64,000 nucleotides of DNA from an uncultured Planctomycetota bacterium (GTDB lineage: Bacteria; Planctomycetota; Planctomycetia; Isosphaerales; Isosphaeraceae). This document shows positions 18,280 to 62,767 of this stretch, piece after piece. The stretch lies in the NCBI GenBank assembly GCA_963823665.1, contig CAWGMQ010000011.1:512001-576000 (forward strand). The letters are read 5' to 3'. Under the pieces are notes generated by a model. The model worked only from the letters and a program-made list of their open reading frames with translations, was not told where the DNA came from and made no database searches. Positions within the stretch are counted from its first letter, which is position 1. The number at the start of each line of letters is the position of its first letter. Both the position numbers and the translations under genes were made by a program.

Positions 18280-20001
18280 CTACTTGTGGATCAGCACCGG
18301 GGGCTTGCGGTGCTTCGTGGCCTGCTCGTACGCGAACGCCCATCCCAGCAAGTCGCCGTCCTTCCACGGCCGGGCTGAAAACTCGAGTCCGAACGGTAAT
18401 CCCGTTGGGTAGAACCCGCCGGGCACAACGATCGCAGGCGCGCCGATTGGATTTATCCAGCCGGTCTCGCTGTGCGGTCCGCTGCTGAACTGGCCGGGAA
18501 TCGTCTCGTCGTTTGGCGGCATTTGCGCGGACGGATACACCAGTCCGTCGAGGCGGAAGCGAGCGAACGCATCGTCATAGGCGGCCAGCGCCCTTTTCTG
18601 GGGAGCCCAGAACGTCTTCTCGGCGTCCGGATCGCTCGCGAGCTCGCGCTGCGCCGCGGGCCGCCCGCCGGTGACCATCATCGGCAGCGGGCTTCCAACC
18701 GCTTTCTCGTATTCCGCGGCTGATCGATAGTCCTCCGGACCGAAGTCGCGCAGGAAGTTGTCGAAACCCTCGCGGGCATAGGGCCGCGTGTTGATGGAGT
18801 AAACGAGCGAGAGAAAGCTCTCCGGCAGGAGTGTCTCGTCGATGACGACGGTCGCCCCCGCTTTTCGCAGTTCTTCGAGCGCCCGCATGAACATCTCGCG
18901 AGTGTCCGGCGTGAGCAGCAGGGTGCGGGACCGTTGGCCCGGCGCCGCGGTCTTGAGCATGAAAGCCGGAACGCCGAAGCGCTTGTCCTCGAGCGCGTTG
19001 CTCTTGAGGTAGTTCGTGTACGGCCCGCGCTGCGCCCTGGCGGTCGAGCCGCGCGTGCGCAAGTCGCGCGGGTCTTCTCCGGCCATCACCCCCAGCGCGA
19101 TTGCCGCGTCCGTTACCGTGCGCGTGATCGGTCCCGTGTTGTCGAGAAGCGGATCGAGCGGGTGAATGCCCGCGATGCTCACCAGTCCGCGCGTCGGCAG
19201 GACACCCACGACATTGCTCGTGCCTGACGGCATGCGGATCGAGTTTGACGTGTCGGTGCCGGTGCCAAAGACGGCAAAATTGGCAGCAACCGACGTCACC
19301 GTGCCGCCAGACGATCCGCCTGGGCTATAGCGCCAGTTGTAGGCGTTGCCAGTGCGGCCGCCCGCGCTGCTGTTGGTCGTGTCGCCCGCGGCGAAGTCCG
19401 GCATATTCGTCTGCCCGATGATCACGGCGCCGGCCGCTCGCAGTTTGACGACGACGGAAGCGTCGGCTGGCGCAATGAACTCGTGACCCTTGATCAGATA
19501 GCCCTTCCAGCCGGTGCTCGTGACGAGCCCCTTGATGCTGGTGTTGGCCTTGATCACGACGGGCACGCCCCAGAGTGGGCCGCGGTTGAAAGTCAGGCCG
19601 CCGCTCTCCGCCGCCGCATCCAGACCGGCCGCCGTCACGAGCGCGCCCGCCGCGTCAATGTGCAATAAAGCTTTGTAGACGCCGTCGTAGCGCGCAATGC
19701 GATCCAGGTACCACCGCGTGACCTGCGTGACGGTGTACTTGTGCGAACTGTACATCGATTCGAGCCTCGGAATCGTTACTTCGGCGAGGTCGCGATCGAT
19801 AGCGGCGGCGGTCTGCGAAGTCGTTGTCGATGCCGCATTCGGATCGGCTCCGGCACCAACCTGCGGGCGCTCAACCGAAGCCGCACGTCGTTGAAGCTGC
19901 GTCTGTGCTCGCAGCGCGTTGCTCGGGCAGACTGATGGCGCAAGCAGGAGAGCCACAACCGCGAAGCCGTTGCAGACACTGCGCAAAATCGAATTTGTCA
20001 T
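18280..20001 (-). CDS. secreted amidase-signature family enzyme
   Basis: GPLWGVPVVIK, PGGSSGG, GTDTSNSIRMP; signal-like N-terminus. Confidence 0.9.
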   Translation of the reverse strand: MTNSILRSVCNGFAVVALLLAPSVCPSNALRAQTQLQRRAASVERPQVGAGADPNAASTTTSQTAAAIDRDLAEVTIPRLESMYSSHKYTVTQVTRWYLDRIARYDGVYKALLHIDAAGALVTAAGLDAAAESGGLTFNRGPLWGVPVVIKANTSIKGLVTSTGWKGYLIKGHEFIAPADASVVVKLRAAGAVIIGQTNMPDFAAGDTTNSSAGGRTGNAYNWRYSPGGSSGGTVTSVAANFAVFGTGTDTSNSIRMPSGTSNVVGVLPTRGLVSIAGIHPLDPLLDNTGPITRTVTDAAIALGVMAGEDPRDLRTRGSTARAQRGPYTNYLKSNALEDKRFGVPAFMLKTAAPGQRSRTLLLTPDTREMFMRALEELRKAGATVVIDETLLPESFLSLVYSINTRPYAREGFDNFLRDFGPEDYRSAAEYEKAVGSPLPMMVTGGRPAAQRELASDPDAEKTFWAPQKRALAAYDDAFARFRLDGLVYPSAQMPPNDETIPGQFSSGPHSETGWINPIGAPAIVVPGGFYPTGLPFGLEFSARPWKDGDLLGWAFAYEQATKHRKPPVLIHK

Positions 20002-20165
20002 GGTTCTCGTCGCCCTCTTATCCGTGCTCGCTCCGTGGACACCATGCGAAACTCTTGATGAGCTCGAACTCAGCTCGAGTTGAACAAAACCGCTACACGG
20101 AAGGCAAGAAGGAGCCGCCCATGACGAAGTGGCTCGTTTCTCTGGCGCTATCACCAGATCCGCCG

Positions 20166-21305
20166 CTATGGTTTGTTCCCGGAAGCCCGCTCGGTCTCTC
20201 GCGTGATGCAGAGGGGGGCCTCCTCATTCCAAAGGATTGTCATCGGAGCAAGCCGTAAATCCACGGGATTGGAACCCTTGTTGAGTGCCTCATTGACGGC
20301 GCTCAGGTTTGCGTCGCGACCGGCGATGGCGAAGAATTCTTGGCGGGAAAGTGTGCCTTCGCGCATCGCTTTCCGAGCGAAGGCACACGATTCTTGAAAG
20401 ATGTCGCTCGACTCGAGGTCGATCGACGTGCGCGATACGCCATTGCCCACGATGCAGACCGTTGACACCGCGACACCAAGACTTTCCAGGAGCGGTTTGC
20501 CGAAGGCGATCGGCAACAACAGAGCCATGCGCCGGGCATCGATCAAAGACTGTCCCGCTTCAACGAGAAGTGACTCGATGAGCGCGTCATCGGCCTCAGA
20601 ATGGCGCGCCATCAGACCGATCGCCTGGCCCACGTCCACACCGCCCTGGATCACCAGAAATATGCGGATGCTGAAGAATCCGTCCGCAAGCGGCAGGGGT
20701 AGCGAACGAGCCGCGGCCAGACCGCTCGTCCATTGTTCGTTGTCGAGCAGCAGCTCGAGCATCGTGGGCCGGCGATCCATCTGAGCGTAATAGAGACGCA
20801 CCCAATGCGTTCCTTCCAGGAGCGGCTCCGTCGCGAGGAGCCGGTGAAACGCTTCGATCCAATCCGTACTCATCTCGACAGCGCCGGCGCCGCGGCAAGC
20901 CATGTTGCCGTCGGTGATCGTGCGCGGCACGCCATGATTCGTGATCTTCAGCTCATTTGTCTGCTCGCCACAGTCGAGCCCGAAGAAACGCTTCAGCAGC
21001 ACGTGGAGGGTGTTGTCGCTGAAGACCTGGAGCGACTGGCGAATGCGTTCCTCGCGGGTGTCTGCTATCCCGCTGAACGATTCGCAGATAGCACAACCTG
21101 GCCAGGGTGAAAACCGGATATCGACCTGAGTCGAGCACAGCGGATGGACGTTCTTGAGTGCGAAGATCAACCCTTGGATCTTCCCGGGGTGCTCAGGGAA
21201 TGTGACCCAATCTCCTTCGCTCTGCGCGGCGACGCCATGTGCGCCGAAAAGCGCGATCAGAGTGGCGTGAAGTTCATCAGGCGACGAGCAATCTGGGGCG
21301 TCCAT
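20166..21305 (-). CDS. hypothetical protein (resembles DUF6348 family)
   Basis: 379-aa ORF with ESFSGIAD, HWVRLYYA and ELLLDNEQW; family match from recall only. Confidence 0.6.
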   Translation of the reverse strand: MDAPDCSSPDELHATLIALFGAHGVAAQSEGDWVTFPEHPGKIQGLIFALKNVHPLCSTQVDIRFSPWPGCAICESFSGIADTREERIRQSLQVFSDNTLHVLLKRFFGLDCGEQTNELKITNHGVPRTITDGNMACRGAGAVEMSTDWIEAFHRLLATEPLLEGTHWVRLYYAQMDRRPTMLELLLDNEQWTSGLAAARSLPLPLADGFFSIRIFLVIQGGVDVGQAIGLMARHSEADDALIESLLVEAGQSLIDARRMALLLPIAFGKPLLESLGVAVSTVCIVGNGVSRTSIDLESSDIFQESCAFARKAMREGTLSRQEFFAIAGRDANLSAVNEALNKGSNPVDLRLAPMTILWNEEAPLCITRETERASGNKP

Positions 21306-21367: not shown

Positions 21368-21820
21368 TGCGGCCCGCAGGATTCGAACCTGCAACCAAGG
21401 GATTCAAGGGCCCTCGCGTTTCCACGAGGCTTGGACTATCTCATCCTCCAGGTTCCTTTGCATCCAGGAAGGCGACCGGAACGAATTCCGGGCAGTTCTT
21501 CTGGATGCGATCGTCCTCTGGAGGCCGGGCGCTCGGGGCGGGGGTTATTGTTGGGGCTCACCCCGCTAGTCTCTGAACCTTCCTGGCCACCAGTGCCCGG
21601 CCAGGCTTGGCTGCGGATTGCCCTACCGAAGAAACAAGTCGGACAGATCGAGAACATCGGTCAGGAAAGGTCGTGCGAACGACCAAACCACCCGAGTAAC
21701 CGCCGCTCTGATCCTCTCGGTTTAGGTTTCCCGCAATTCACCCGGTTCGCAGTCGAAGGTTTCCCTCCGTTGCCACCTTTTGTTGATGAGTCCCCTGCTC
21801 TGCCGTTGAGCTAGGGCCGC
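21368..21820 (-). tRNA. non-initiator tRNA with CAT anticodon (Ile2 or elongator Met), interrupted by an intron; exons 21786-21820 and 21368-21404
   Basis: Joined exons GCGGCCCTAGCTCAACGGCAGAGCAGGGGACTCAT/AATCCCTTGGTTGCAGGTTCGAATCCTGCGGGCCGCA fold into a full cloverleaf. The 1-72 pair is formed and the initiator triple-GC anticodon stem is absent. Confidence 0.92.
21405..21785 (-). ncRNA. group I intron (IC-like core), 381 nt, no ORF
   Basis: P AATTGCGGGAAA, Q GGCAATCCGCAGC, R GTTCAGAGACTA, S GAGATAGTCC; P7 GACTA/TAGTC. The 5' exon ends in U, an IGS GTG can pair with CAT, and the intron ends in G. Confidence 0.92.
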
Positions 21821-22008: not shown

Positions 22009-22887
22009 TCAAGTTGAAGACACAGCCGTCGCCGTGGCGGTCATCGCTGAGCGCATCTTCGGCAGCCGGATGTCGTAGGCGATCCGGCAAAACTTCATGG
22101 CTTGAATCGAGAGATAAGTCAGGTCGATTTCCCACCAGCGGAGCCCGTGCCGGGCCGACGTTTGATAGGCGTGGTGATTGTTGTGCCAGCCCTCGCCATA
22201 CGTCAGAAGGGCCACCCACCACAGATTCGTCGACCGGTCTCTCGTGAGGTGCGAGCGGTAGCCCCACACGTGACTCGCCGAATTCACCAGCCAGGTGGAG
22301 TGCAAAACAAATACCGATCGCACAAAACCGCCCCAGACGAACCAGGGCATCCCGCCAACCATAAACAACCCGAGGAAGAGCAGGAGCGGAAAGACGAAGT
22401 GCCAGCGCTCAAGAAACATGTGCACCGGGTCTTTGCACAGGTCGGGACACCACTTCTTGTAATACTCGAGCGTGTGCTCAGACTCGTCGTCAACCTTCAT
22501 CCACCAGGCCATGTGTGCCCACAGGAAGCCACGCAGCGGCGTGTGGGTGTCGTCTTCCTCGTCGGAATGTGCATGGTGCTTGCGGTGATCGGCAATCCAG
22601 CCAATCGCGCCGCCTTCCGAGGCGCAGCAGCCGATGATCGTCAGAACGTACTCAAGCCACTGCGGACGGAGTGCAAAACTGCGGTGCGTCAGCAGGCGGT
22701 GGTACGCAAGGCAGATCCCGATGCCCCCCGTCAGCCAGTGCAGGAGAATGCAAACGGCCAGCCCGCTCCAGGAAAAAAATGCGGGCACAAATGCAAGCAA
22801 GGCGAGGGCGTGCAAGGACCCAATCCAGATCAGAGGGCCCCAGGAGAGCCGTGCCGGCGCAGGTTGCGCCGTGGTCGTTGTCGTCAT
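22009..22887 (-). CDS. acyl-CoA/acyl-lipid delta-9 desaturase
   Basis: YHRLLTHRSF, DHRKHHAHSD, WLVNSASH, GEGWHNNHH. Confidence 0.92.
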   Translation of the reverse strand: MTTTTTAQPAPARLSWGPLIWIGSLHALALLAFVPAFFSWSGLAVCILLHWLTGGIGICLAYHRLLTHRSFALRPQWLEYVLTIIGCCASEGGAIGWIADHRKHHAHSDEEDDTHTPLRGFLWAHMAWWMKVDDESEHTLEYYKKWCPDLCKDPVHMFLERWHFVFPLLLFLGLFMVGGMPWFVWGGFVRSVFVLHSTWLVNSASHVWGYRSHLTRDRSTNLWWVALLTYGEGWHNNHHAYQTSARHGLRWWEIDLTYLSIQAMKFCRIAYDIRLPKMRSAMTATATAVSST

Positions 22888-23393
22888 AATCAACCTTTGT
22901 TCGTATACATCGCTGAGGATGGATTCGTGTTGGTGGGAGGGCTACGCGAAGAGGCGCGGCATGTTTAGTGGCAGGTCTATCGGGGTATCGACTCGCACGT
23001 GGTTGCCCTGAAATGCTATAGTTGCTATCGCGCCTCAATTCAAGCCCGATGCGGATTTACGTACCTACATTATTGGGACGTCGCTTGCACCCAGAATCGC
23101 TCCGAGCATCCACTTTTTGGCGGATTCATCGTTGAACACCGGCCTTTCGCTGTAAAAATGAAGCGATGGGGTAAACTAGGTGTTTAGAGAAAAATGCAAC
23201 GACACGAAGCTCTTGGATGAGAAGGCACTGTGGGGAAAGCTTACGGTGGGTCTGGCCCGAATTCATCCGCACGCACTGCTTTGCGGTCTGATTGTGATCG
23301 GTCGCACGTGAAATCTGGGCAGGACCGCCGTCCAGACTCTGACGGCCGAGATTGTCCAGGTGAGGACTGAGCGGCCGTGAGCCGCGACTGCTC

Positions 23394-24569
23394 ATGAAGC
23401 TCAAGTGTCAGCCGGAAGACTTTCGCGTGGAAGAGCTTCCGCTGGTGTCACCGGCCCGCGGCGGCCGTTACGGGTTTTACAGACTCACGAAACGCAACCT
23501 CGGAACGCTCGAAGCGATCGAGCTGGTCGCCAGGCGCTGGAACGTCGCCGGGCGACGGATTTCCTACGGCGGACTGAAGGACCGGCACGCGCTCACGACG
23601 CAGTACCTCACAATCTTCGATGGCCCGCGGCAATCCATCGAGAACGCGGCCTTTTCGCTTGAGCACCTGGGCGGCTTGAATCATCCCTATCGGGCGGCGA
23701 ACTTTCGCGGCAACCGGTTTGACCTGGTCCTCCGCGACCTCGTGCCTGCGGAAGCAATTCGCGTGCTGGAACTCGTCAACTCGCTCGGGTCTGGCGGCCT
23801 GCCGAATTATTTTGACGACCAGCGATTTGGCTCGGTCGGGTACTCCGGCGAGTTCATTGCGCATGCGTGGCTCAAGGGCGACGCCGAACGCGCGCTTGAG
23901 CTGGCGCTCGCGGAGGCCAATCCGTCCGATCGTTCCGGCGTCAAGGCCCAGAAAGCCGTCCTGCGCGAGTGCTGGGGCAAGTGGAGTGCCGCCAAAGCCC
24001 GGCTCGAGCGCTCGCCAACACGCAGCATCGTCACGTACCTGGTGGATCACCCCACCGATTTTCGGGGTGCCTTCGCGCGGATGCGGCGCGAGCTGCGTAC
24101 GCTCTACTTTTCTGCATTTCAGAGTCACTTGTGGAATTTGGTCCTGGCTCGCACGATCGAGCGATGTACGACACCCTCAGAGCGGATTACCGTTGGGCTC
24201 AAGGGTCGCGAATTTCCGTTTCCGGTCGCGCTTGCGCCCGATCACGCCGCTGCGCTGCGCGACTGGCCGATTCCGCTCCCTTCGTCCAGGAACGTGCTGC
24301 CTGAAGGCCCGCGCGGCGAGATAATCCAGGAGGTGCTGGCCGAGTATCAACTGACCTGGCCCGATCTCAGAGTGCGCCACCTCAAGGATGTCTTCTTCTC
24401 GAAGGGATCGCGGCCGGCACTCGTTTCGCCCGAGAATCTGCGGGCCGAAATCAACGATGACGAGCTCCACGCCGGAAGGAAGGCGCTGCGGCTCGCATTC
24501 GAGCTGGGAAAAGGGTCTTACGCGACGATTCTGGTCAAGTGCATCACCGCGGGGGCGGGGCGCGTATGA
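23394..24569 (+). CDS. truD: tRNA pseudouridine(13) synthase
   Basis: PEDFRVEE, GGLKDRHALTTQ, GNRF, PNYFDDQRFG, SAFQSHLWN, FELGKGSYAT. Confidence 0.93.
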   Translation: MKLKCQPEDFRVEELPLVSPARGGRYGFYRLTKRNLGTLEAIELVARRWNVAGRRISYGGLKDRHALTTQYLTIFDGPRQSIENAAFSLEHLGGLNHPYRAANFRGNRFDLVLRDLVPAEAIRVLELVNSLGSGGLPNYFDDQRFGSVGYSGEFIAHAWLKGDAERALELALAEANPSDRSGVKAQKAVLRECWGKWSAAKARLERSPTRSIVTYLVDHPTDFRGAFARMRRELRTLYFSAFQSHLWNLVLARTIERCTTPSERITVGLKGREFPFPVALAPDHAAALRDWPIPLPSSRNVLPEGPRGEIIQEVLAEYQLTWPDLRVRHLKDVFFSKGSRPALVSPENLRAEINDDELHAGRKALRLAFELGKGSYATILVKCITAGAGRV

Positions 24570-39451: not shown

Positions 39452-40183
39452 TTGCGTCAGGAAAGCTCGAGAAAGGAGGAAGTGCCTCGAAACACAGAAA
39501 CCTTTCATCGCGACCCTGCGGGTTAACGAATCCCGCCCGGCAGAGCCTGGCCGGCAGCCGGAAGCAAGTCTTGCGTGGGGAGGGGTGACCCTCACTGCGA
39601 AGCGTAGACAGCGAGTCTCCATGCCATGCTATCGAGCCCCGAAATACTCATCGTGGGAGCCTCCGTTGTAGACACAAGCGGGGGCCGCGTCGACACGCCG
39701 CAATGGCCTGGCGTGTTCGGTCCTGCCGGGGTCCAAGAACATGGCGCAGGGACGCGAGGGTTGCTCGGGAACCTGAGAGCCCCATCCGTCTCCACTGACA
39801 TTTCCGGCTCGGGAACCGGAATACCAACTCCCCGGCCCACGACCCCGCGTCGGGTCGCTGGGAGCGAACAAGACGCAAGGGTGGTATCGCAACATGAAGG
39901 CAACGAAATGTGACGAAAGGGGCGGACGGGAGTCGGAGTGCTCCGTAGTAGCAGTGAAGCGGGGGAATGGGCCCTCCCAGACCCTGTGGAGCGAAGGGGG
40001 TACCGTGTCGCGGACTGGAAGCCGGAACCACGCCGAGGGCATTGGACCTCAGAGCGCGTCACCGCGAGGCGACCAGATCGTGTGAGGGACAGCGACGCCG
40101 CGACATGACGAGCCGGATGCCTTAATTGGGCACGTCCGGATCAGTGGGAGCCCTGGCGGAGCGATCCGCCAGGGCGACCCGGC
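39452..40183 (+). mobile_element. ORF-less group II intron, copy A (732 nt)
   Basis: Starts TTGCG. DV GAGCCGGATGCC-TTAATT-GGGCACGTCCGGATC; DVI with bulged A, ending ACCCGGC. EBS1 AGACAC (39670-39675) is complementary to the exon end GTGTCT. Confidence 0.93.
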
Positions 40184-41588: not shown

Positions 41589-42320
41589 TTGCGTCAGGAA
41601 AGCTCGAGAAAGGAGGAAGTGCCTCGAAACACAGAAACCTTTCATCGCGACCCTGCGGGTTAACGAATCCCGCCCGGCAGAGCCTGGCCGGCAGCCGGAA
41701 GCAAGTCTTGCGTGGGGAGGGGTGACCCTCACTGCGAAGCGTAGACAGCGAGTCTCCATGCCATGCTATCGAGCCCCGAAATACTCATCGTGGGAGCCTC
41801 CGTTGTAGACACAAGCGGGGGCCGTGTCGACACGCCGCAATGGCCTGGCGTGTTCGGTCCTGCCGGGGTCCAAGAACATGGCGCAGGGACGCGAGGGTTG
41901 CTCGGGAACCTGAGAGCCCCATCCGTCTCCACTGACATTTCCGGCTCGGGAACCGGAATACCAACTCCCCGGCCCACGACCCCGCGTCGGGTCGCTGGGA
42001 GCGAACAAGACGCAAGGGTGGTATCGCCAAACGAAGGCAACGAAGTGCGGCGAAATGGGCGGACGGGAGTCGGAGTGCTCCGTAGTAGCAGTGAAGCGGG
42101 GGAATGGGCCCTCCCAGACCCTGTGGAGCGAAGGGGGTACCGTGTCGCGGACTGGAAGCCGGAACCACGCCGAGGGCATTGGACCTCAGAGCGCGTCACC
42201 GCGAGGCGACCAGATCGTGTGAGGGACAGCGACGCCGCGACATGACGAGCCGGATGCCTTAATTGGGCACGTCCGGATCAGTGGGAGCCCTGGCGGAGCG
42301 ATCCGCCAGGGCGACCCGGC
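41589..42320 (+). mobile_element. ORF-less group II intron, copy B (732 nt)
   Basis: Same boundaries and domains as copy A; followed by GACATCCCC. Confidence 0.93.
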
Positions 42321-44728: not shown

Positions 44729-45306
44729 TTGCGTCAGGAAAGCTCGAGAAAGGAGGAAGTGCCTCGAAACACAGAAACCTTTCATCGCGACCCTGCGGGT
44801 TAACGAATCCCGCCCGGCAGAGCCTGGCCGGCAGCCGGAAGCAAGTCTTGCGTGGGGAGGGGTGACCCTCACTGCGAAGCGTAGACAGCGAGTCTCCATG
44901 CCATGCTATCGAGCCCCGAAATACTCATCGTGGGAGCCTCCGTTGTAGACACAAGCGGGGGCCGTGTCGACACGCCGCAATGGCCTGGCGTGTTCGGTCC
45001 TGCCGGGGTCCAAGAACATGGCGCAGGGACGCGAGGGTTGCTCGGGAACCTGAGAGCCCCATCCGTCTCCACTGACATTTCCGGCTCGGGAACCGGAATA
45101 CCAACTCCCCGGCCCACGACCCCGCGTCGGGTCGCTGGGAGCGAACAGGACGCAAGGGTGGTATCGCCACACGAAGGCAACGAAGTGCGGCGAAAGGGGC
45201 GGATGGGAGTCGGAGCGTCTCGTAGTACCGTTGAAGCCGGGGAACCACTCCGAGGGACCCGGTGGAGGGAAGGAGACGCCATGTCACACAACCGTTGGAG
45301 GGAAAC

Positions 45307-46705: not shown

Positions 46706-49125
46706 TCGCGAAACGAAGCTGCGGATGAGTCTGTTATGACTGGATTTGCAACCAGGACATAACCCGATGTACGACCACCGGAACCCTACCAGGACGTGCG
46801 GCCGGAGCAATCCGACCGTGCGAAGCTCTTGGGACAACGTAACCTCACCTTCGGGTGGTTGGATATCCCGTGAGGGAATCCGGCGACTGCGAACGCCAAT
46901 GCGGTCGGGGGCCAGGGGTGGATGGCATGGCTAATCCAGGTGAACTGCCGATAAACGTCGTGAGATCCAACAAGCCAAAGGCGCTGAGAGGCTTGAACCA
47001 AAAAGGTACGTGGCCAGGTACAGTGGGATTTCCCATCCCCTGTCGTCGTCATCCGAGCCACCGGCGGAGAGGCAGAGCCTAAACCATCCGTGATTCATCC
47101 GTGGAACGTGGTAAGCCCGTCGCCCTCCCTTCGGGGTAGGACCGTCGTAAGGCGTCGCCGATGGGGCGGCGGGTGGAGGATGAGGGAGCAAGCCAATGCC
47201 GTTCGGTAGTCGATCGGATAGAGGGTGAGTCCTCCCACGGACGACATCCCCTCACCGCGAAAGCGGTGCCGACTTCCCTCAGGTGTTCCGTCACGAGAGA
47301 ACCTTGGCCAACCGACTCAGGGAGACAAGCAGATATGTCGGCGGCAGAAATGCTTGCTGGTGCGGCTCCCGAGCTTACGCCCGACTGGCACTCCATCGAA
47401 TGGAAGAAAGTCTGGCGCACAGTCCGTCGGCTCCAGGCGCGTATCGTGAAGGCTGTTGCGGAGGGCAGATGGAATAAGGTCAAGGCTCTGGTTTATCTGC
47501 TCACGCACTCGTTCAGTGGCCGGGCCCTGGCCATTTTGCGAGTCATCAGTAATTCGGGTGCGAAGACTCCCGGTGTGGACGGAGTTCTCTGGAACACACC
47601 GGAAGCCAAGTCGGCTGCTTTCAGCACTCTGCGTCGGCACGGTTACCAACCGCAACCGCTCCGCCGGGTGTACATTCCCAAAAGCAACGGCAAGCGACGT
47701 CCTCTCGGAATTCCCACCATGTCAGATCGAGCCATGCAGGCATTATACTTGCTAGGCCTCGATCCCATTGCGGAATCTCGAGCCGACGGCCATTCCTATG
47801 GCTTTCGGCTGGAACGTCGTTGTGCCGACGCCCTGGAACAATCTCATATTGTCTTGGGTAATCGGAGCGGTCCAGCATGGATTCTCGAAGGGGACATCAA
47901 AGCTTGCTTTGATCGCATCAGTCATGACTGGCTCTTGACGCACGTCCCCATGGACCGGCAGTTGCTCGGGCAATGGCTGAAAGTGGGTTTCCTGGAGAAG
48001 CACGCCTGGTTCGCCACCACGGAAGGAACACCTCAAGGCGGGATCATTTCACCCGTCCTGGCGAATTGGACTCTGGATGGACTGCAACGGCTGTTGGCGG
48101 AACAGTTCGCCGAGAAGCACGGGCGACAACGGAAGTTTAAAGTCCACCTGGTCCGCTATGCGGATGACTTCTTGATCACGGGCATCTCAAAGGAACTCCT
48201 CCGTGACCAAGTGCAACCTCTCGTGGCTCATTTCTTGAAGGAACGCGGCTTGGAACTTTCCCACGAGAAAACCCAGATCACGCATGTGGAGGATGGCTTC
48301 GATTTCTTGGGGCAGAATGTGCGACGCTATCGCTGCGGCAAGGTGTTCACCAAGCCGTCCTTGCGAAACGTGAAGACGTTCTTGAACAAGATACAGGAAA
48401 CGATCGACGGCTCGGGCAGCCTAACGGCAGGAGAGATGATCTGGCGTTTGAATCAGCAGATCAAGGGCTGGACCATGTACCACCGTTACGCGGCGAGCAA
48501 GCGCACTTTTACGTACGTGGATCACCGGATTTTCCAGAAATTGTGGCGTTGGTGTCGACGACGGCACCAGAACAAAGGCCGGAGGTGGATCAAGGAGAAA
48601 TACTTCCAGCAAGACGGTTACCGCCACTGGGTCTTCACCGGTACGCTGTTTGACCAGAAAGGCCAAGGCCGGCCGATCCAGTTGATGGAAGCAGCCAAAG
48701 TGAAGATCATTCGTTATGTGAAGATCCGGAGCGACGTGAATCCCTACGATCCGAAGTGGGAACTGTACCTGGAAGCACGACTGGGTTGGCAACTGAGCCA
48801 AACGCTGGCAGGTCGGGGTCGGATCGAATACTTATGGAAGGAACAAGAGGGACGATGCGTGGTCTGTGGTCAACCGCTGCGGATCGCAGAGGAAGACTTG
48901 CATCTCCACCATCGCATCTGGCGCAGCCGGGGCGGTTCTGGCACAGCCGACAACCTGGAGTTGTTGCATGCCAACTGTCATCGGCAGATCCATGTCCAAG
49001 AACGACTGACGAAAGCGGCCGCGTCCTGCGAGGGGCGTTCGTGAAGGCTTGAGCTGCATGAAGGGAAACTTTCACGTGCAGTTCTGAGGGGAGGGGGTGG
49101 CGGTAACGTCACCTCCTTACCCGGC
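46706..49125 (+). mobile_element. second group II intron (chloroplast-like class by recall), nested in DVI of the outer intron
   Basis: Starts TCGCG. DV GAGCTGCATGAAGGGAAACTTTCACGTGCAGTTC at 49051-49084; ends TTACCCGGC. Removing it restores the outer GGGAG/CCTTGGGGG DVI. Confidence 0.9.
47335..49044 (+). CDS. ltrA: group II intron RT/maturase with a C-terminal HNH endonuclease
   Basis: WHSIEW...[42 protein letters not shown]...HH...[10 protein letters not shown]. Confidence 0.95.
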
Positions 49126-59326: not shown

Positions 59327-60059
59327 TTGCGTCAGGAAAAGCTCGAGAAAGGAGGAAGTGCCTCGAAACACAGAAACCTTTCATCGCAACCCTGCGGGTT
59401 AACGAATCCCGCCCGGCAGAGCCTGGCCGGCAGCCGGAAGCAAGTCTTGCGTGGGGAGGGGTGACCCTCACTGCGAAGCGTAGACAGCGAGTCCACATGC
59501 CATGCTATCGAGCCCCGAAATACTCATCGTGGGAGCCTCCGTTGTAGACACAAGCGGGGGCCGCGTCGACACGCCGCAATGGCCTGGCGTGTTCGGTCCT
59601 GCCGGGGTCCAAGAACATGGCGCAGGGACGCGAGGGTTGCTCGGGATCCTGAGAGCCCCATCCGTCTCCACTGACATTTCCGGCTCGGGAACCGGAATAC
59701 CAACTCCCCGGCCCACGACCCCGCGTCGGGTCGCTGGGAGCGAACAAGACGCAAGGGTGGTATCGCAACATGAAGGCAACGAAATGTGACGAAAGGGGCG
59801 GATGGGAGTCGGAGTGCTCCGTAGTAGCAGTGAAGCGGGGGAATGGGCCCTCCCAGACCCTGTGGAGCGAAGGGGGCACCGTGTCGTGGACTGGACGCCG
59901 GAACCACGCCGAGGGCATTGGACCTCAAAGCGTGTGACCGTAAGGCAGCCAGATCGTGAGAGGGACAGCGACGCCGCGACATGACGAGCCGGATGCCTTA
60001 ATTGGGCACGTCCGGATCAGTGGGAGCCCTGGCGGAGCGATCCGCCAGGGCGACCCGGC
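59327..60059 (+). mobile_element. ORF-less group II intron, copy D (733 nt)
   Basis: Same boundaries, DV and DVI as copy A, with several substitutions. Confidence 0.93.
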
Positions 60060-62035: not shown

Positions 62036-62767
62036 TTGCGTCAGGAAAGCTCGAGAAAGGAGGAAGTGCCTCGAAACACAGAAACCTTTCATCGCGACCC
62101 TGCGGGTTAACGAATCCCGCCCGGCAGAGCCTGGCCGGCAGCCGGAAGCAAGTCTTGCGTGGGGAGGGGTGACCCTCACTGCGAAGCGTAGACAGCGAGT
62201 CTCCATGCCATGCTATCGAGCCCCGAAATACTCATCGTGGGAGCCTCCGTTGTAGACACAAGCGGGGGCCGTGTCGACACGCCGCAATGGCCTGGCGTGT
62301 TCGGTCCTGCCGGGGTCCAAGAACATGGCGCAGGGACGCGAGGGTTGCTCGGGAACCTGAGAGCCCCATCCGTCTCCACTGACATTTCCGGCTCGGGAAC
62401 CGGAATACCAACTCCCCGGCCCACGACCCCGCGTCGGGTCGCTGGGAGCGAACAAGACGCAAGGGTGGTATCGCCAAACGAAGGCAACGAAGTGCGGCGA
62501 AATGGGCGGACGGGAGTCGGAGTGCTCCGTAGTAGCAGTGAAGCGGGGGAATGGGCCCTCCCAGACCCTGTGGAGCGAAGGGGGTACCGTGTCGCGGACT
62601 GGAAGCCGGAACCACGCCGAGGGCATTGGACCTCAGAGCGCGTCACCGCGAGGCGACCAGATCGTGTGAGGGACAGCGACGCCGCGACATGACGAGCCGG
62701 ATGCCTTAATTGGGCACGTCCGGATCAGTGGGAGCCCTGGCGGAGCGATCCGCCAGGGCGACCCGGC
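62036..62767 (+). mobile_element. ORF-less group II intron, copy E (732 nt)
   Basis: Appears identical to copy B; ends ACCCGGC before GACATCCCC. Confidence 0.93.

What the first reader, a model, noticed from the sequence alone, without database searches (positions are those of the whole stretch)
21368..21820. Group I intron in the anticodon loop of a CAT tRNA
Seen: a 381-nt insert directly after the CAT anticodon with P, Q, R and S elements, P7, a P1 pairing of CAT with GTG, and a terminal G. Established: the Azoarcus tRNA-Ile(CAU) intron occupies this same position and is about 200 nt. This one is longer, with peripheral extensions and no homing endonuclease. tRNA finders may miss the gene. 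I cannot say whether it has been reported in this lineage.
Basis: partly seen in the sequence, partly recalled or inferred. Interest (0 to 1): 0.7.

Follow-up and report, generated by a model that had tools for sequence, protein, structure and literature searches.

The report
Self-splicing intron in isoleucine tRNA gene
The gene for the tRNA that most likely reads the isoleucine codon AUA is cut in two, right after its anticodon, by a 381-base group I intron that is predicted to splice itself out. The same intron sits in nearly every genome of this planctomycete family, so it is a real feature of a kind already known.

Summary
On the minus strand a tRNA(CAU) gene (21820..21368) is split after CAT by a 381-nt insert (21785..21405) that ends in G. 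Rfam's group I model scores it 72.5 bits (cut-off 50).

The same insert, at the same site, is in 98 of 98 complete loci collected from relatives. Titles name them Isosphaeraceae (Planctomycetota). Compensatory changes occur in P2, P5a, P6a, P8, P9 and P9.0.

In a family-wide search, 114 of 121 genomes match; one match (G005) is exon-only.

The tRNA is most likely tRNA-Ile2. It is closest to E. coli ileX. The genome has TilS, and it has separate initiator-like and elongator-like CAU tRNAs.

This is the classical "Ile2.5Ug" (Azoarcus-type) setting, so the kind is known. This copy has large, fast-evolving P5 and P8 arms. It also has a nearly invariant 29-nt hairpin between P7 and P3, shared with a tRNA-Arg(CCU) intron in a neighbouring family. 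It has no homing endonuclease.

Metatranscriptome contigs from relatives show an exon-exon junction at the predicted place and two intron circle-type junctions. These are weak hints of activity.

ARAGORN misses the gene by default. With introns allowed it miscalls it tRNA-Gln.

This scan found the same intron before in another genome (e1-9965660).

The parts
21786..21820 (-). 5' exon of tRNA(CAU): acceptor 5' strand, D arm, anticodon stem 5' strand, and loop bases C-U plus anticodon C-A-U
   Evidence: Sequence. Identical in 18 of 19 relatives' loci. ARAGORN -i gives the same 5' end.
21405..21785 (-). Group I intron, 381 nt. The first base is C and the last base is omega-G (21405).
   Evidence: RF00028 72.5 bits against cut-off 50. 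Same site in 20 of 20 and 78 of 78 complete loci, all ending in G.
21368..21404 (-). 3' exon of tRNA(CAU): A37-A38, anticodon stem 3' strand, variable loop, T arm, acceptor 3' strand, discriminator A. No CCA is encoded.
   Evidence: Sequence. ARAGORN cloverleaf of the exons joined in a script.
21773..21789 (-). P1: exon U-C-A-U plus the first intron C, paired with the internal guide G-G-U-G-G. A U.G wobble lies at the 5' splice site. The loop is 7 nt.
   Evidence: All 100 cells of these 5 pairs form a standard pair in the 20 sequences. The U.G pair is invariant.
21750..21772 (-). P2 hairpin with a GNRA loop (GAAA here)
   Evidence: 6 of its 9 pairs change on both sides. The loop is GAAA, GUAA, GCAA, GUGA or GCGA in relatives.
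21739..21745 (-). P3, 5' strand (pairs with 21525-21531)
   Evidence: 7 pairs, invariant in 20 of 20.
21621..21735 (-). P4 5' strand, J4/5, and the P5/P5a arm. The arm has an internal loop that resembles a tetraloop receptor and an extension of about 85 nt. The P4 3' strand follows at 21612-21617.
   Evidence: P4 is invariant. 3 of the 4 P5a pairs change on both sides. The P5 arm is 110 nt here, against 26-110 (median 49.5) in 68 relatives. Folded alone, its energy is not better than shuffles, z -0.9.
21577..21611 (-). P6/P6a hairpin
   Evidence: 2 of the 7 P6a pairs change on both sides. MFE hairpin.
21567..21571 (-). P7, 5' strand within the R element. It pairs with 21434-21438 in the S element and forms a pseudoknot with P3. 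The G-binding site is inferred to lie here.
   Evidence: 5 pairs, invariant in 20 of 20.
21532..21566 (-). Extra hairpin in J7/3. The stem is GCGGGG/CCCCGC with a 17-nt loop (21538-21566), followed by a short variable linker. Rfam's consensus has 2 nt between P7 and P3' at this place.
   Evidence: Shown as a 33-nt insertion against RF00028. Nearly invariant. All changes seen in the 3' strand are C to U, which keeps pairing with G. Also present in a tRNA-Arg(CCU) intron of G025.
21445..21524 (-). P8 arm: a 7-bp base plus a long extension ending in a UUCG-capped hairpin
   Evidence: 3 of the 7 base pairs change on both sides. Folds at -36.8 kcal/mol, z -4.5, with 0 of 200 shuffles as good. The arm is 80 nt here, against 15-87 in relatives.
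21405..21432 (-). J7/9 A-A-G (P9.0 5' strand), the P9 hairpin with a GAAA loop, the tail with C-U-U (P9.0 3' strand), and omega-G
   Evidence: 3 of the 7 P9 pairs change on both sides. P9.0 reads AAG/CUU in 63, GAG/CUC in 19 and GAG/CUU in 1 of 83 distinct sequences.

Best explanation
This is a tRNA gene, most likely tRNA-Ile2(CAU), interrupted between anticodon base 36 and base 37 by a 381-nt group I intron. The intron is predicted to remove itself by the usual two transesterifications.

Shown:
- The sequence has all group I core pairings (P1-P9, P9.0, and the P3/P7 pseudoknot).
- These are supported by covariation across about 100 relatives.
- There is a U.G wobble at the 5' splice site and a terminal G.

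Inferred mechanism:
1. The pre-tRNA folds so that anticodon-loop bases U33-U36 pair with the guide GGUGG (P1).
2. A free guanosine bound in P7 attacks after U36.
3. Omega-G (21405), held by the 3-bp P9.0, then takes its place.
4. The freed 3'-OH of U36 attacks the 3' splice site and restores the loop C-U-C-A-U-A-A.
5. The invariant 5-bp anticodon stem likely holds the two exons together in place of a P10.
6. C34 is buried in P1 before splicing, so lysidine formation by TilS would follow splicing.

Other inferences:
- The GNRA loop of P2 and the GAAA loop of P9 likely dock on helices, as in the Azoarcus intron.
- The large P5 and P8 arms vary freely and are likely dispensable.
- The role of the invariant J7/3 hairpin is unknown.
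- The intron has no endonuclease and appears to be inherited vertically within the family Isosphaeraceae.
For: Group I identity:
- RF00028 scores 72.5 bits against a cut-off of 50, over the full model.
- 18 of 20 relatives' loci also pass the cut-off, including Singulisphaera acidiphila at 70.1 bits.

Structure:
- On 20 aligned sequences, 98.4% of cells pair, against 38.5-50.6% when the partners are slid.
- 18 pairs change on both sides, against a shuffled mean of 7.3, and 0 of 500 shuffles reach this. 17 of these pairs are in the intron.
- P9.0 covaries: A-U in 63, G-C in 19 and G.U in 1 of 83 distinct sequences.

Splice sites:
- U(-1) and omega-G are present in 20 of 20 and 78 of 78 complete loci.
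- Only this junction gives the same anticodon in all of them. ARAGORN's junction would give CUG in some and CCG in others for the same tRNA body.

tRNA identity:
- TilS is present (TIGR02432, 159.7 bits against cut-off 93.6).
- Among 71 tRNAs read from the fetched loci, the other CAU tRNAs are an initiator-like one (73% identical to E. coli metY), an elongator-like one, and an odd 69-nt copy in a tRNA array.
- Ours is 70% identical to E. coli ileX, against 58% to metT and 49% to metY. It shares ileX's anticodon arm, the G27.U43 wobble and the variable loop.
- It is the only copy in this genome.

Distribution:
- 114 of 121 family genomes match, and 46 of 47 of the high-quality ones.
- All but one of the matching relatives match at E <= 7.4e-15, far better than exon-only matches give.

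RNA (relatives, weak):
- One contig joins 21404 to 21786, skipping exactly 381 bases (X19).
- Contigs in two studies join the intron's 3' end to an intron 5' start (X5; X19).
Against: - No splicing assay and no RNA data exist for this strain.
- The RNA contigs come from metagenome relatives laid at 85% likeness. The exon-exon joint has only 28 letters on its shorter side and could come from an intronless relative's gene. Such genes exist (G005, G025, G034).
- P3, P4, P7 and the J7/3 hairpin never vary, so covariation cannot test them.
- No promoter-like or terminator-like site was found near the gene.
- Ile2 identity rests on similarity and exclusion. Only 150 of 322 tRNA candidates were scored, and 10 long-arm tRNA matches were not fetched.
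- The 4-69 pair is G-C here, against C-G in E. coli ileX.
- The subgroup (IC3) was not tested with subgroup models.
Confidence: 0.85

Rival explanations
1. The host gene is an elongator tRNA-Met(CAU), not tRNA-Ile2. The intron is the same, but it would then be a 'Met' setting.
For: - The anticodon CAU alone does not tell Met from Ile2.
- ARAGORN labels the joined exons tRNA-Met.
- The acceptor 4-69 pair differs from that of E. coli ileX.
- The tRNA census of the genome was incomplete.
Against: - The genome already has an elongator-like CAU tRNA (L041) and an initiator-like one (L023). It has TilS, which needs an Ile2 substrate.
- Ours is 70% identical to ileX against 58% to metT. The anticodon arm and variable loop are nearly identical to ileX's.
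- Ile2 after loop position 5 is a classical intron setting.
Confidence: 0.08
2. The ribozyme is no longer self-sufficient. It would need a protein cofactor, or the split gene would be a decaying pseudogene.
For: - No activity data exist.
- The P5 extension alone folds no better than shuffles (z -0.9).
- Many natural group I introns need proteins in vivo (established knowledge).
Against: - It is the only copy of this tRNA in the genome.
- The exons are identical in 18 of 19 relatives, and the core is invariant.
- Compensatory changes keep six helices paired.
- Circle-type junctions in RNA contigs of relatives are what an active omega-G would give.
Confidence: 0.06
3. The wide distribution reflects repeated horizontal spread of a mobile intron, not vertical inheritance from the family's ancestor.
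For: - A close relative of the intron sits in a different gene, tRNA-Arg(CCU), in G025. It is 65% identical over 259 aligned positions and has the same J7/3 hairpin. It is closer to ours than the Ile2-site introns of family f6 are, at 57-58%. At least one move between genes therefore happened.
- One family member is intronless (G005).
- One contig titled 'Candidatus Kuenenia' carries the intron (L099).
Against: - There is no endonuclease ORF.
- It is present in 51 of 53 genera searched, always at the one site.
- Intron divergence tracks kinship: 84% identity within the genus, 72-77% within the family.
- Outside the family, only 3 of the 227 genomes of other families searched match beyond the exons.
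Confidence: 0.1
4. ARAGORN's reading is right: tRNA-Gln(CUG), with a 381-nt intron between loop positions 33 and 34.
For: ARAGORN -i output.
Against: - That junction has C before the 5' cut and T as the last intron base, not U and G.
- In the 19 of 83 distinct sequences whose tail reads CUCG, the same rule would give anticodon CCG (Arg) on the same tRNA body.
- The genome has 2 ordinary tRNA-Gln(CUG) genes.
- Williams 2020 describes this kind of miscall and resolves it by the U(-1)/omega-G rule.
Confidence: 0.01

Closest known systems
[quoted passage not shown] This is type 'Ile2.5Ug' of Williams 2020 (bioRxiv 10.1101/2020.01.27.920355) and is listed there as subgroup IC3.
   Same: - Same host tRNA type and same insertion point, after the fifth anticodon-loop base.
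- U(-1) in a C-A-U/G-U-G P1, and omega-G.
- P2 and P9 capped by GNRA/GAAA loops.
- A P5 internal loop (CCUAAA/UAGGG) that resembles the 11-nt receptor CCUAAG/UAUGG. The receptor motif and the Azoarcus structure are recalled, not taken from a call.
- No ORF.
- [quoted passage not shown]
   Different: - 381 nt here, against about 200.
- A 29-nt, nearly invariant hairpin in J7/3, where the Rfam consensus has 2 nt.
- A P5 arm of 110 nt and a P8 arm of 80 nt.
- P8 shows no 11-nt-type receptor.
- The lineage is Planctomycetota, not Betaproteobacteria.
- I could not align the Azoarcus sequence itself, because none of my calls reached it.
Bacterial tRNA-Arg(CCU) group I introns (type 'Arg.5Ug'; classical example Agrobacterium tumefaciens, recalled)
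   Same: - Same position in the loop (after base 36), with U(-1) and omega-G.
- The copy in G025 (L162:383-733) shares our R element, J7/3 hairpin and P3 3' strand. It is 91% identical over 62-64 nt and 65% over 259 aligned positions.
   Different: - Different host tRNA, and a guide sequence that pairs with C-C-U.
- 277 nt, with short P5 and P8 arms.
- Found with intron-level matches in 1 of 301 class genomes searched.
tRNA-Lys(UUU) group I intron of the same genome (G000:C11:460364-460657, 'Lys.3Ug'; earlier finding e1-8408324)
   Same: It is also a group I-like intron in an anticodon loop of this genome, with no ORF.
   Different: - It lies after the third loop base.
- RF00028 scores only 34.7 bits.
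- It has no J7/3 hairpin.
- It is 45% identical to ours over the aligned positions.

Membership tests
Group I intron (Rfam RF00028) | Covariance-model score at or above the curated gathering score | tested here: met
   72.5 bits against 50, model positions 1-253. 18 of 20 relatives' loci also pass.
Group I intron (Rfam RF00028) | P1 formed by the 5' exon end and an internal guide, with a U.G wobble at the 5' splice site | tested here: met
   The U.G pair is invariant in 20 of 20. All 5 P1 pairs are 100% paired.
Group I intron (Rfam RF00028) | Terminal guanosine (omega-G) at the 3' splice site, positioned by P9.0 | tested here: met
   G is the last base in 20 of 20 and 78 of 78 loci. P9.0 pairs in 83 of 83 distinct sequences, with an A-U to G-C exchange.
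Group I intron (Rfam RF00028) | Conserved core P3-P8 with the P3/P7 pseudoknot | tested here: met
   All helices can be drawn. P5a, P6a and P8 covary. P3, P4 and P7 are invariant, so they are supported by conservation only.
Group I intron (Rfam RF00028) | Guanosine-dependent self-splicing | not testable with these tools
   This needs an in vitro assay. The only hints come from relatives' metatranscriptome contigs: an exon-exon joint that skips exactly 381 bases, and two circle-type joints.
'Ile2.5Ug' bacterial tRNA intron type (Williams 2020) | Intron after anticodon-loop position 5, with U at -1 and G at omega | tested here: met
   The loop reads C-U-C-A-U / intron ... G / A-A.
'Ile2.5Ug' bacterial tRNA intron type (Williams 2020) | The host is the lysidine-dependent tRNA-Ile2(CAU) | tested here: inconclusive
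   The evidence favours Ile2. TilS is present. Separate initiator-like and elongator-like CAU tRNAs exist. Ours is closest to E. coli ileX, at 70% against 58% and 49%. No isotype-specific model or modification data were available, and the tRNA census was incomplete.
Subgroup IC3 | Assignment by subgroup-specific structure or models | not tested
   No subgroup models were on hand. The assignment is inferred from the statement that all four classical tRNA intron types are IC3 and from the P2/P9 tetraloops. The J7/3 hairpin is not part of the Rfam consensus.
Mobile (homing) group I intron | Intron-encoded homing endonuclease | tested here: not met
   The ORFs over the intron are at most 127 aa and have no Pfam match at E <= 0.1.

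The most novel reading that the evidence does not exclude
The nearly invariant J7/3 hairpin is a new functional module of tRNA group I introns. It is shared by the Ile2 intron of Isosphaeraceae and by an Arg(CCU) intron next door. It might be a docking site for a protein or for another part of the RNA, one that ties maturation of the only AUA-reading tRNA to cell state, or that stabilises a circular intron RNA with a role of its own. That would explain why more than a hundred species have kept an endonuclease-free intron in an essential single-copy gene.
Probability: 0.12. Interest if true: 0.6.

Novelty: new member of a known kind. Interest (0 to 1): 0.3.

Why it matters
Annotation:
- Standard tRNA finders miss this gene or mislabel it. 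ARAGORN gives none by default and tRNA-Gln with introns allowed.
- Genomes of a whole planctomycete family can therefore appear to lack the tRNA for AUA.

Intron biology:
- It is a clean case of an endonuclease-free group I intron fixed in an essential single-copy gene across a family.
- One sister copy has moved to tRNA-Arg(CCU).
- The set of about 100 natural variants has a constant core and freely varying P5 and P8 arms. This is useful material for studying ribozyme folding and peripheral elements.

It does not change what is known about how such introns work.

Tried and rejected
I worked with genome searches and fetched stretches instead.
- BLAST of the 37-nt 3' exon against E. coli genomes to name the tRNA gave only weak T-arm matches to tRNA-Arg and tRNA-Lys. 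It was uninformative.
- The RF00005 hit at 21368-21439 (24.3 bits, below cut-off) is a chance composite of P9 and the 3' exon, not a tRNA.
- A local GGGG/CCCC hairpin, and a register that uses the CCCG linker, were considered for J7/3. The first cannot form in the G025 Arg intron. The second uses bases that vary among relatives.
- A kissing contact between the J7/3 loop and the invariant GGGC of the P6a loop could not be tested, because neither side varies.
- I looked for a P10 between the 3' exon and the guide. The bases 5' of the guide are not conserved and cannot pair with A-A-U.
- Promoter and terminator scans found nothing.

RNA runs:
- All holders had small shares of the words (at most 0.17) and are relatives' conserved parts. 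I draw no habitat or expression claim from them.
- Parts of the stretch without contig cover mean nothing.
- Adapter letters next to 21820 in X3 and next to 21769 in X15 are ordinary fragment ends. I do not count them as mapped RNA ends.

Literature:
- Ikawa et al. 2000 (PMC110692) is not held.
- Table 1 of Williams 2020, the breakdown by phylum, is an image, and bioRxiv supplements are closed. I could not see whether planctomycete Ile2 introns were counted there.

Full report
**What is there**

Read on the minus strand, 21820..21786 is the 5' half of a tRNA: acceptor strand, D arm, anticodon stem strand, then loop bases C-U and the anticodon C-A-U. It is followed by 381 bases (21785..21405) that end in G. 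After that, 21404..21368 supplies A-A, the other anticodon stem strand, a 5-nt variable loop, the T arm, the acceptor strand and a discriminator A. No CCA is encoded.

Rfam's group I model RF00028 matches 21412-21798 (minus) over its whole length. It scores 72.5 bits against a gathering score of 50, with E 1.8e-16 for the window. ARAGORN with default settings reports no tRNA in the whole window. With introns allowed it finds a split gene with exactly these ends and a 381-nt intron. It puts the junction two bases upstream and calls the gene tRNA-Gln(CUG).

**Comparative structure**

A BLAST of the 453-base stretch against 40 relatives gave loci in 19 of them. In all 20 loci, own included, an insert follows C-A-T of the same tRNA and ends in G. 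The exons are identical to ours in 18 of the 19 relatives. The inserts are 252-416 nt long.

I drew P1-P9 by hand on the MAFFT alignment A1 and counted pairs.
- 98.4% of 1780 cells form standard pairs, against 38.5-50.6% when the 3' partners are slid by 1-3 columns.
- 18 of 89 pairs change on both sides, against a shuffled mean of 7.3, and 0 of 500 shuffles reach this.
- 17 of these 18 pairs lie in the intron: P2 has 6, P5a 3, P6a 2, P8 3 and P9 3.
- P1, P3, P4, P6 and P7 hardly vary, or do not vary at all, so they rest on conservation alone.

Across 83 distinct sequences, the three bases of J7/9 and the three bases before the terminal G form a P9.0 that covaries. It reads AAG/CUU in 63, GAG/CUC in 19 and GAG/CUU in 1. 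This fixes the 3' splice site independently of the exons.

RF00028 passes its cut-off in 18 of 20 relatives' loci tested. L008 and L016 fall below it.

**Which tRNA**

The junction with U before it and G at the intron's end gives anticodon CAU in every sequence. ARAGORN's junction would instead give CUG or CCG on one and the same tRNA body.

The genome encodes TilS (TIGR02432, 159.7 bits against cut-off 93.6), so it needs a tRNA-Ile2(CAU).

A genome-wide tRNA search gave 77 matches, with 150 of 322 candidates scored.
- I fetched all of them except 10 long-arm matches of 82-104 nt.
- ARAGORN read 71 tRNAs in the fetched loci, three of them with CAU.
- L023 has an initiator-type D arm and is 73% identical to E. 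coli metY.
- L041 looks like an ordinary elongator tRNA-Met.
- L024 holds an odd 69-nt copy inside a 10-tRNA array.

Our joined exons are 70% identical to E. coli ileX (annotated tRNA-Ile(CAU)). They are 58% identical to metT/metU and 49% to metY. They share ileX's anticodon arm almost base for base, including the G27.U43 wobble and the U-G-G-U-Y variable loop. Only one copy of the gene exists in this genome. I therefore read it as tRNA-Ile2, with about 9 in 10 confidence.

**What is known**

Williams 2020 (bioRxiv 10.1101/2020.01.27.920355; whole text read) lists four classical bacterial tRNA intron settings: Leu.3Ug, Arg.5Ug, fMet.2Ug and Ile2.5Ug. All four are marked IC3 in the database that the paper cites.
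- The paper extends these settings to 21 cases among 5292 introns.
- Ours is C-U-C-A-U / ... g / A-A, that is Ile2.5Ug, the Azoarcus setting.
- Its Table 1, the counts by phylum, is an image that I could not read, and the supplements are closed.

Two full-text searches found no paper that reports a group I intron in a planctomycete tRNA.
- the 15 listed papers have 0 occurrences of 'group I intron'.
- 10 papers hold all three terms, and by title and abstract none is about this.

I saw only passages of these papers:
- Hausner et al. 2014 (PMC3984707).
- Geary et al. 2008 (PMC2275092).
- Dolan and Mueller 2014 (PMC3895272).
- The 2025 group I intron database paper (PMC11835236).

This scan met the same intron before, in another Isosphaeraceae genome (e1-9965660). 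Its verdict agrees with mine, which I reached before I read it.

**Distribution**

An exact scan of one genome per species for a 21-base invariant block (R element plus the start of the extra hairpin) found 95 stretches.
- The titles of the 80 fetched are almost all Isosphaeraceae or unnamed planctomycetes. They include Singulisphaera acidiphila DSM 18658, Tundrisphaera, Paludisphaera and Tautonia.
- One contig is titled 'Candidatus Kuenenia'.
- 78 of the 80 are complete, and 2 are cut by contig ends.
- All 78 have the intron after C-A-T of the same tRNA, and all end in G.
- Lengths run from 252 to 425 nt, with a median of 296.5. Four of the 78 are 381 nt or longer.

In the family as sampled, 114 of 121 genomes match.
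- Among high-quality genomes, 46 of 47 match. By genus, 51 of 53 match.
- The seven genomes without a match are 64-96% complete.
- One member, G005, has an intronless gene.

In 301 genomes of the class that are at least 85% complete, 71 of 73 family members match. Elsewhere, almost all matches are exon-only. The exceptions are as follows.
- G039 and G140 (family f6) have an intron at the same Ile2 site. It lacks the extra hairpin and is only 57-58% identical to ours.
- G025 (family f2) has an intronless tRNA(CAU). Its tRNA-Arg(CCU) is split after C-C-T by an intron that is 65% identical to ours and carries the same hairpin.
- That Arg version was found in 1 of 301 genomes.

The hairpin-bearing lineage has therefore occupied two tRNA genes that share U36-A37. 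Within Isosphaeraceae, the pattern fits inheritance from a common ancestor.

**What is particular to this copy**

Anchored on conserved blocks, the length differences lie in three places (68 relatives with all anchors).
- The P5 arm is 26-110 nt, and ours, at 110, is the maximum.
- The P8 arm is 15-87 nt, and ours is 80.
- The P6 arm is 31-94 nt, and ours is 31.

The P5 extension differs even from that of the same-genus genome. Alone, it folds no better than shuffles (z -0.9). The P8 arm is a strong hairpin (z -4.5). These arms look like freely evolving additions.

The J7/3 hairpin is the opposite.
- It has a 6-bp stem, a 17-nt loop and an almost fixed sequence.
- The 21-base scan pattern fixed the 5' strand for 78 of the sequences.
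- The 3' strand was free to vary, yet every change seen in it is C to U.
- Rfam's consensus has two bases at this place.
- I do not know what this hairpin does.

No ORF in or over the intron matches Pfam.

The neighbouring genes are ordinary:
- a fatty-acid desaturase (22009-22893, minus);
- a DUF6348 protein (20166-21305, minus);
- an amidase (18280-20154, minus);
- TruD (23394-24569, plus).

**RNA evidence (weak, and from relatives only)**

No public run holds this strain's sequence. The best RNA runs share at most 0.17 of the sampled words. Eight metatranscriptome runs were laid as contigs at 85% likeness. They cover the conserved intron blocks and the exons.

Three joints are of interest.
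- In X19, one contig joins 21404 directly to 21786, skipping exactly 381 bases. Its depth is 8.3, and 28 letters lie on the shorter side. This is the predicted ligated-exon junction, but an intronless relative's gene would give the same contig.
- In X5, one contig joins the intron's last base (21405) through two letters to 21779, near the intron's 5' end. Its depth is 12.7, with 35 letters on the shorter side.
- In X19, which comes from a different study, another contig joins a relative's P9 and its tail ending C-U-U-G to an intron 5' start.

In all 98 genomic loci, the intron's last base is followed by the 3' exon. These two contigs therefore look like circular intron RNA, a known product of an active omega-G. 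They remain hints only.

**Verdict**

This is a genuine, well-supported group I intron in the classical tRNA-Ile2 position. It is new as a documented member in Isosphaeraceae. It has lineage-specific peripheral elements. It is not a new kind of element.

Noticed in passing
L002 (G000:C11:460364-460657, about 51 kb before the window's start): A second group I-like intron lies in the same genome, with RF00028 at 34.7 bits, below the cut-off. It splits a tRNA-Lys(UUU) after the first anticodon base (exon ...C-U-U / intron / U-U-A-A...). This is the same element as earlier finding e1-8408324.
   Followed up: partly
L162:383-733 (G025:C273): In a neighbouring family, a tRNA-Arg(CCU) is split after C-C-T by a 277-nt group I intron (RF00028 68.7 bits). 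It shares our J7/3 hairpin and is closer to our intron (65%) than the Ile2-site introns of family f6 are (57-58%). This suggests a past move between tRNA genes. It was found in 1 of 301 class genomes searched.
   Followed up: partly
L166 and L167 (G005:C4:101816-101887 and 116499-116535): This is the one family member with an intronless tRNA-Ile2 gene. A copy of the gene's 3' part, running from the anticodon stem onward, lies 14.6 kb away. This is the pattern left by an element integrated into a tRNA gene.
   Followed up: no
L024 (G000:C5:873601-876630) and L049 (G000:C5:949580-951440): These are dense tRNA arrays on contig C5. L024 holds 10 tRNAs within 1.2 kb, including an odd 69-nt tRNA(CAU). 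L049 holds 13 RF00005 matches within 1.8 kb, several with low scores. They may belong to a mobile element or prophage.
   Followed up: no
window 39527-39741, 41664-41878, 44804-45018, 59403-59617, 62111-62325; also 46763-46912 and 49049-49125: The second half of the window holds five near-identical group II intron D1-D4 matches (RF02005, 138-140 bits). It also holds one RF02012 match and one RF00029 domain V match. Other findings of this scan cover them.
   Followed up: no
L099 (contig titled MAG 'Candidatus Kuenenia stuttgartiensis'): This contig carries the Isosphaeraceae-type split tRNA(CAU), with a compensated change in the T stem. It is either a binning error or a rare occurrence outside the family.
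   Followed up: no
G051:C45:47854-48275 and G051:C43:67752-68175: One family genome holds two full-length copies of the split gene on different contigs.
   Followed up: no
L168 (G242:C145:105650-106400): A tRNA(CAU) 5' half ends in C-A-T and is followed by unrelated sequence. ARAGORN found no tRNA there with introns of up to 600 nt allowed, and no group I match appears at E <= 0.01. It may be a longer insert or a broken gene.
   Followed up: no
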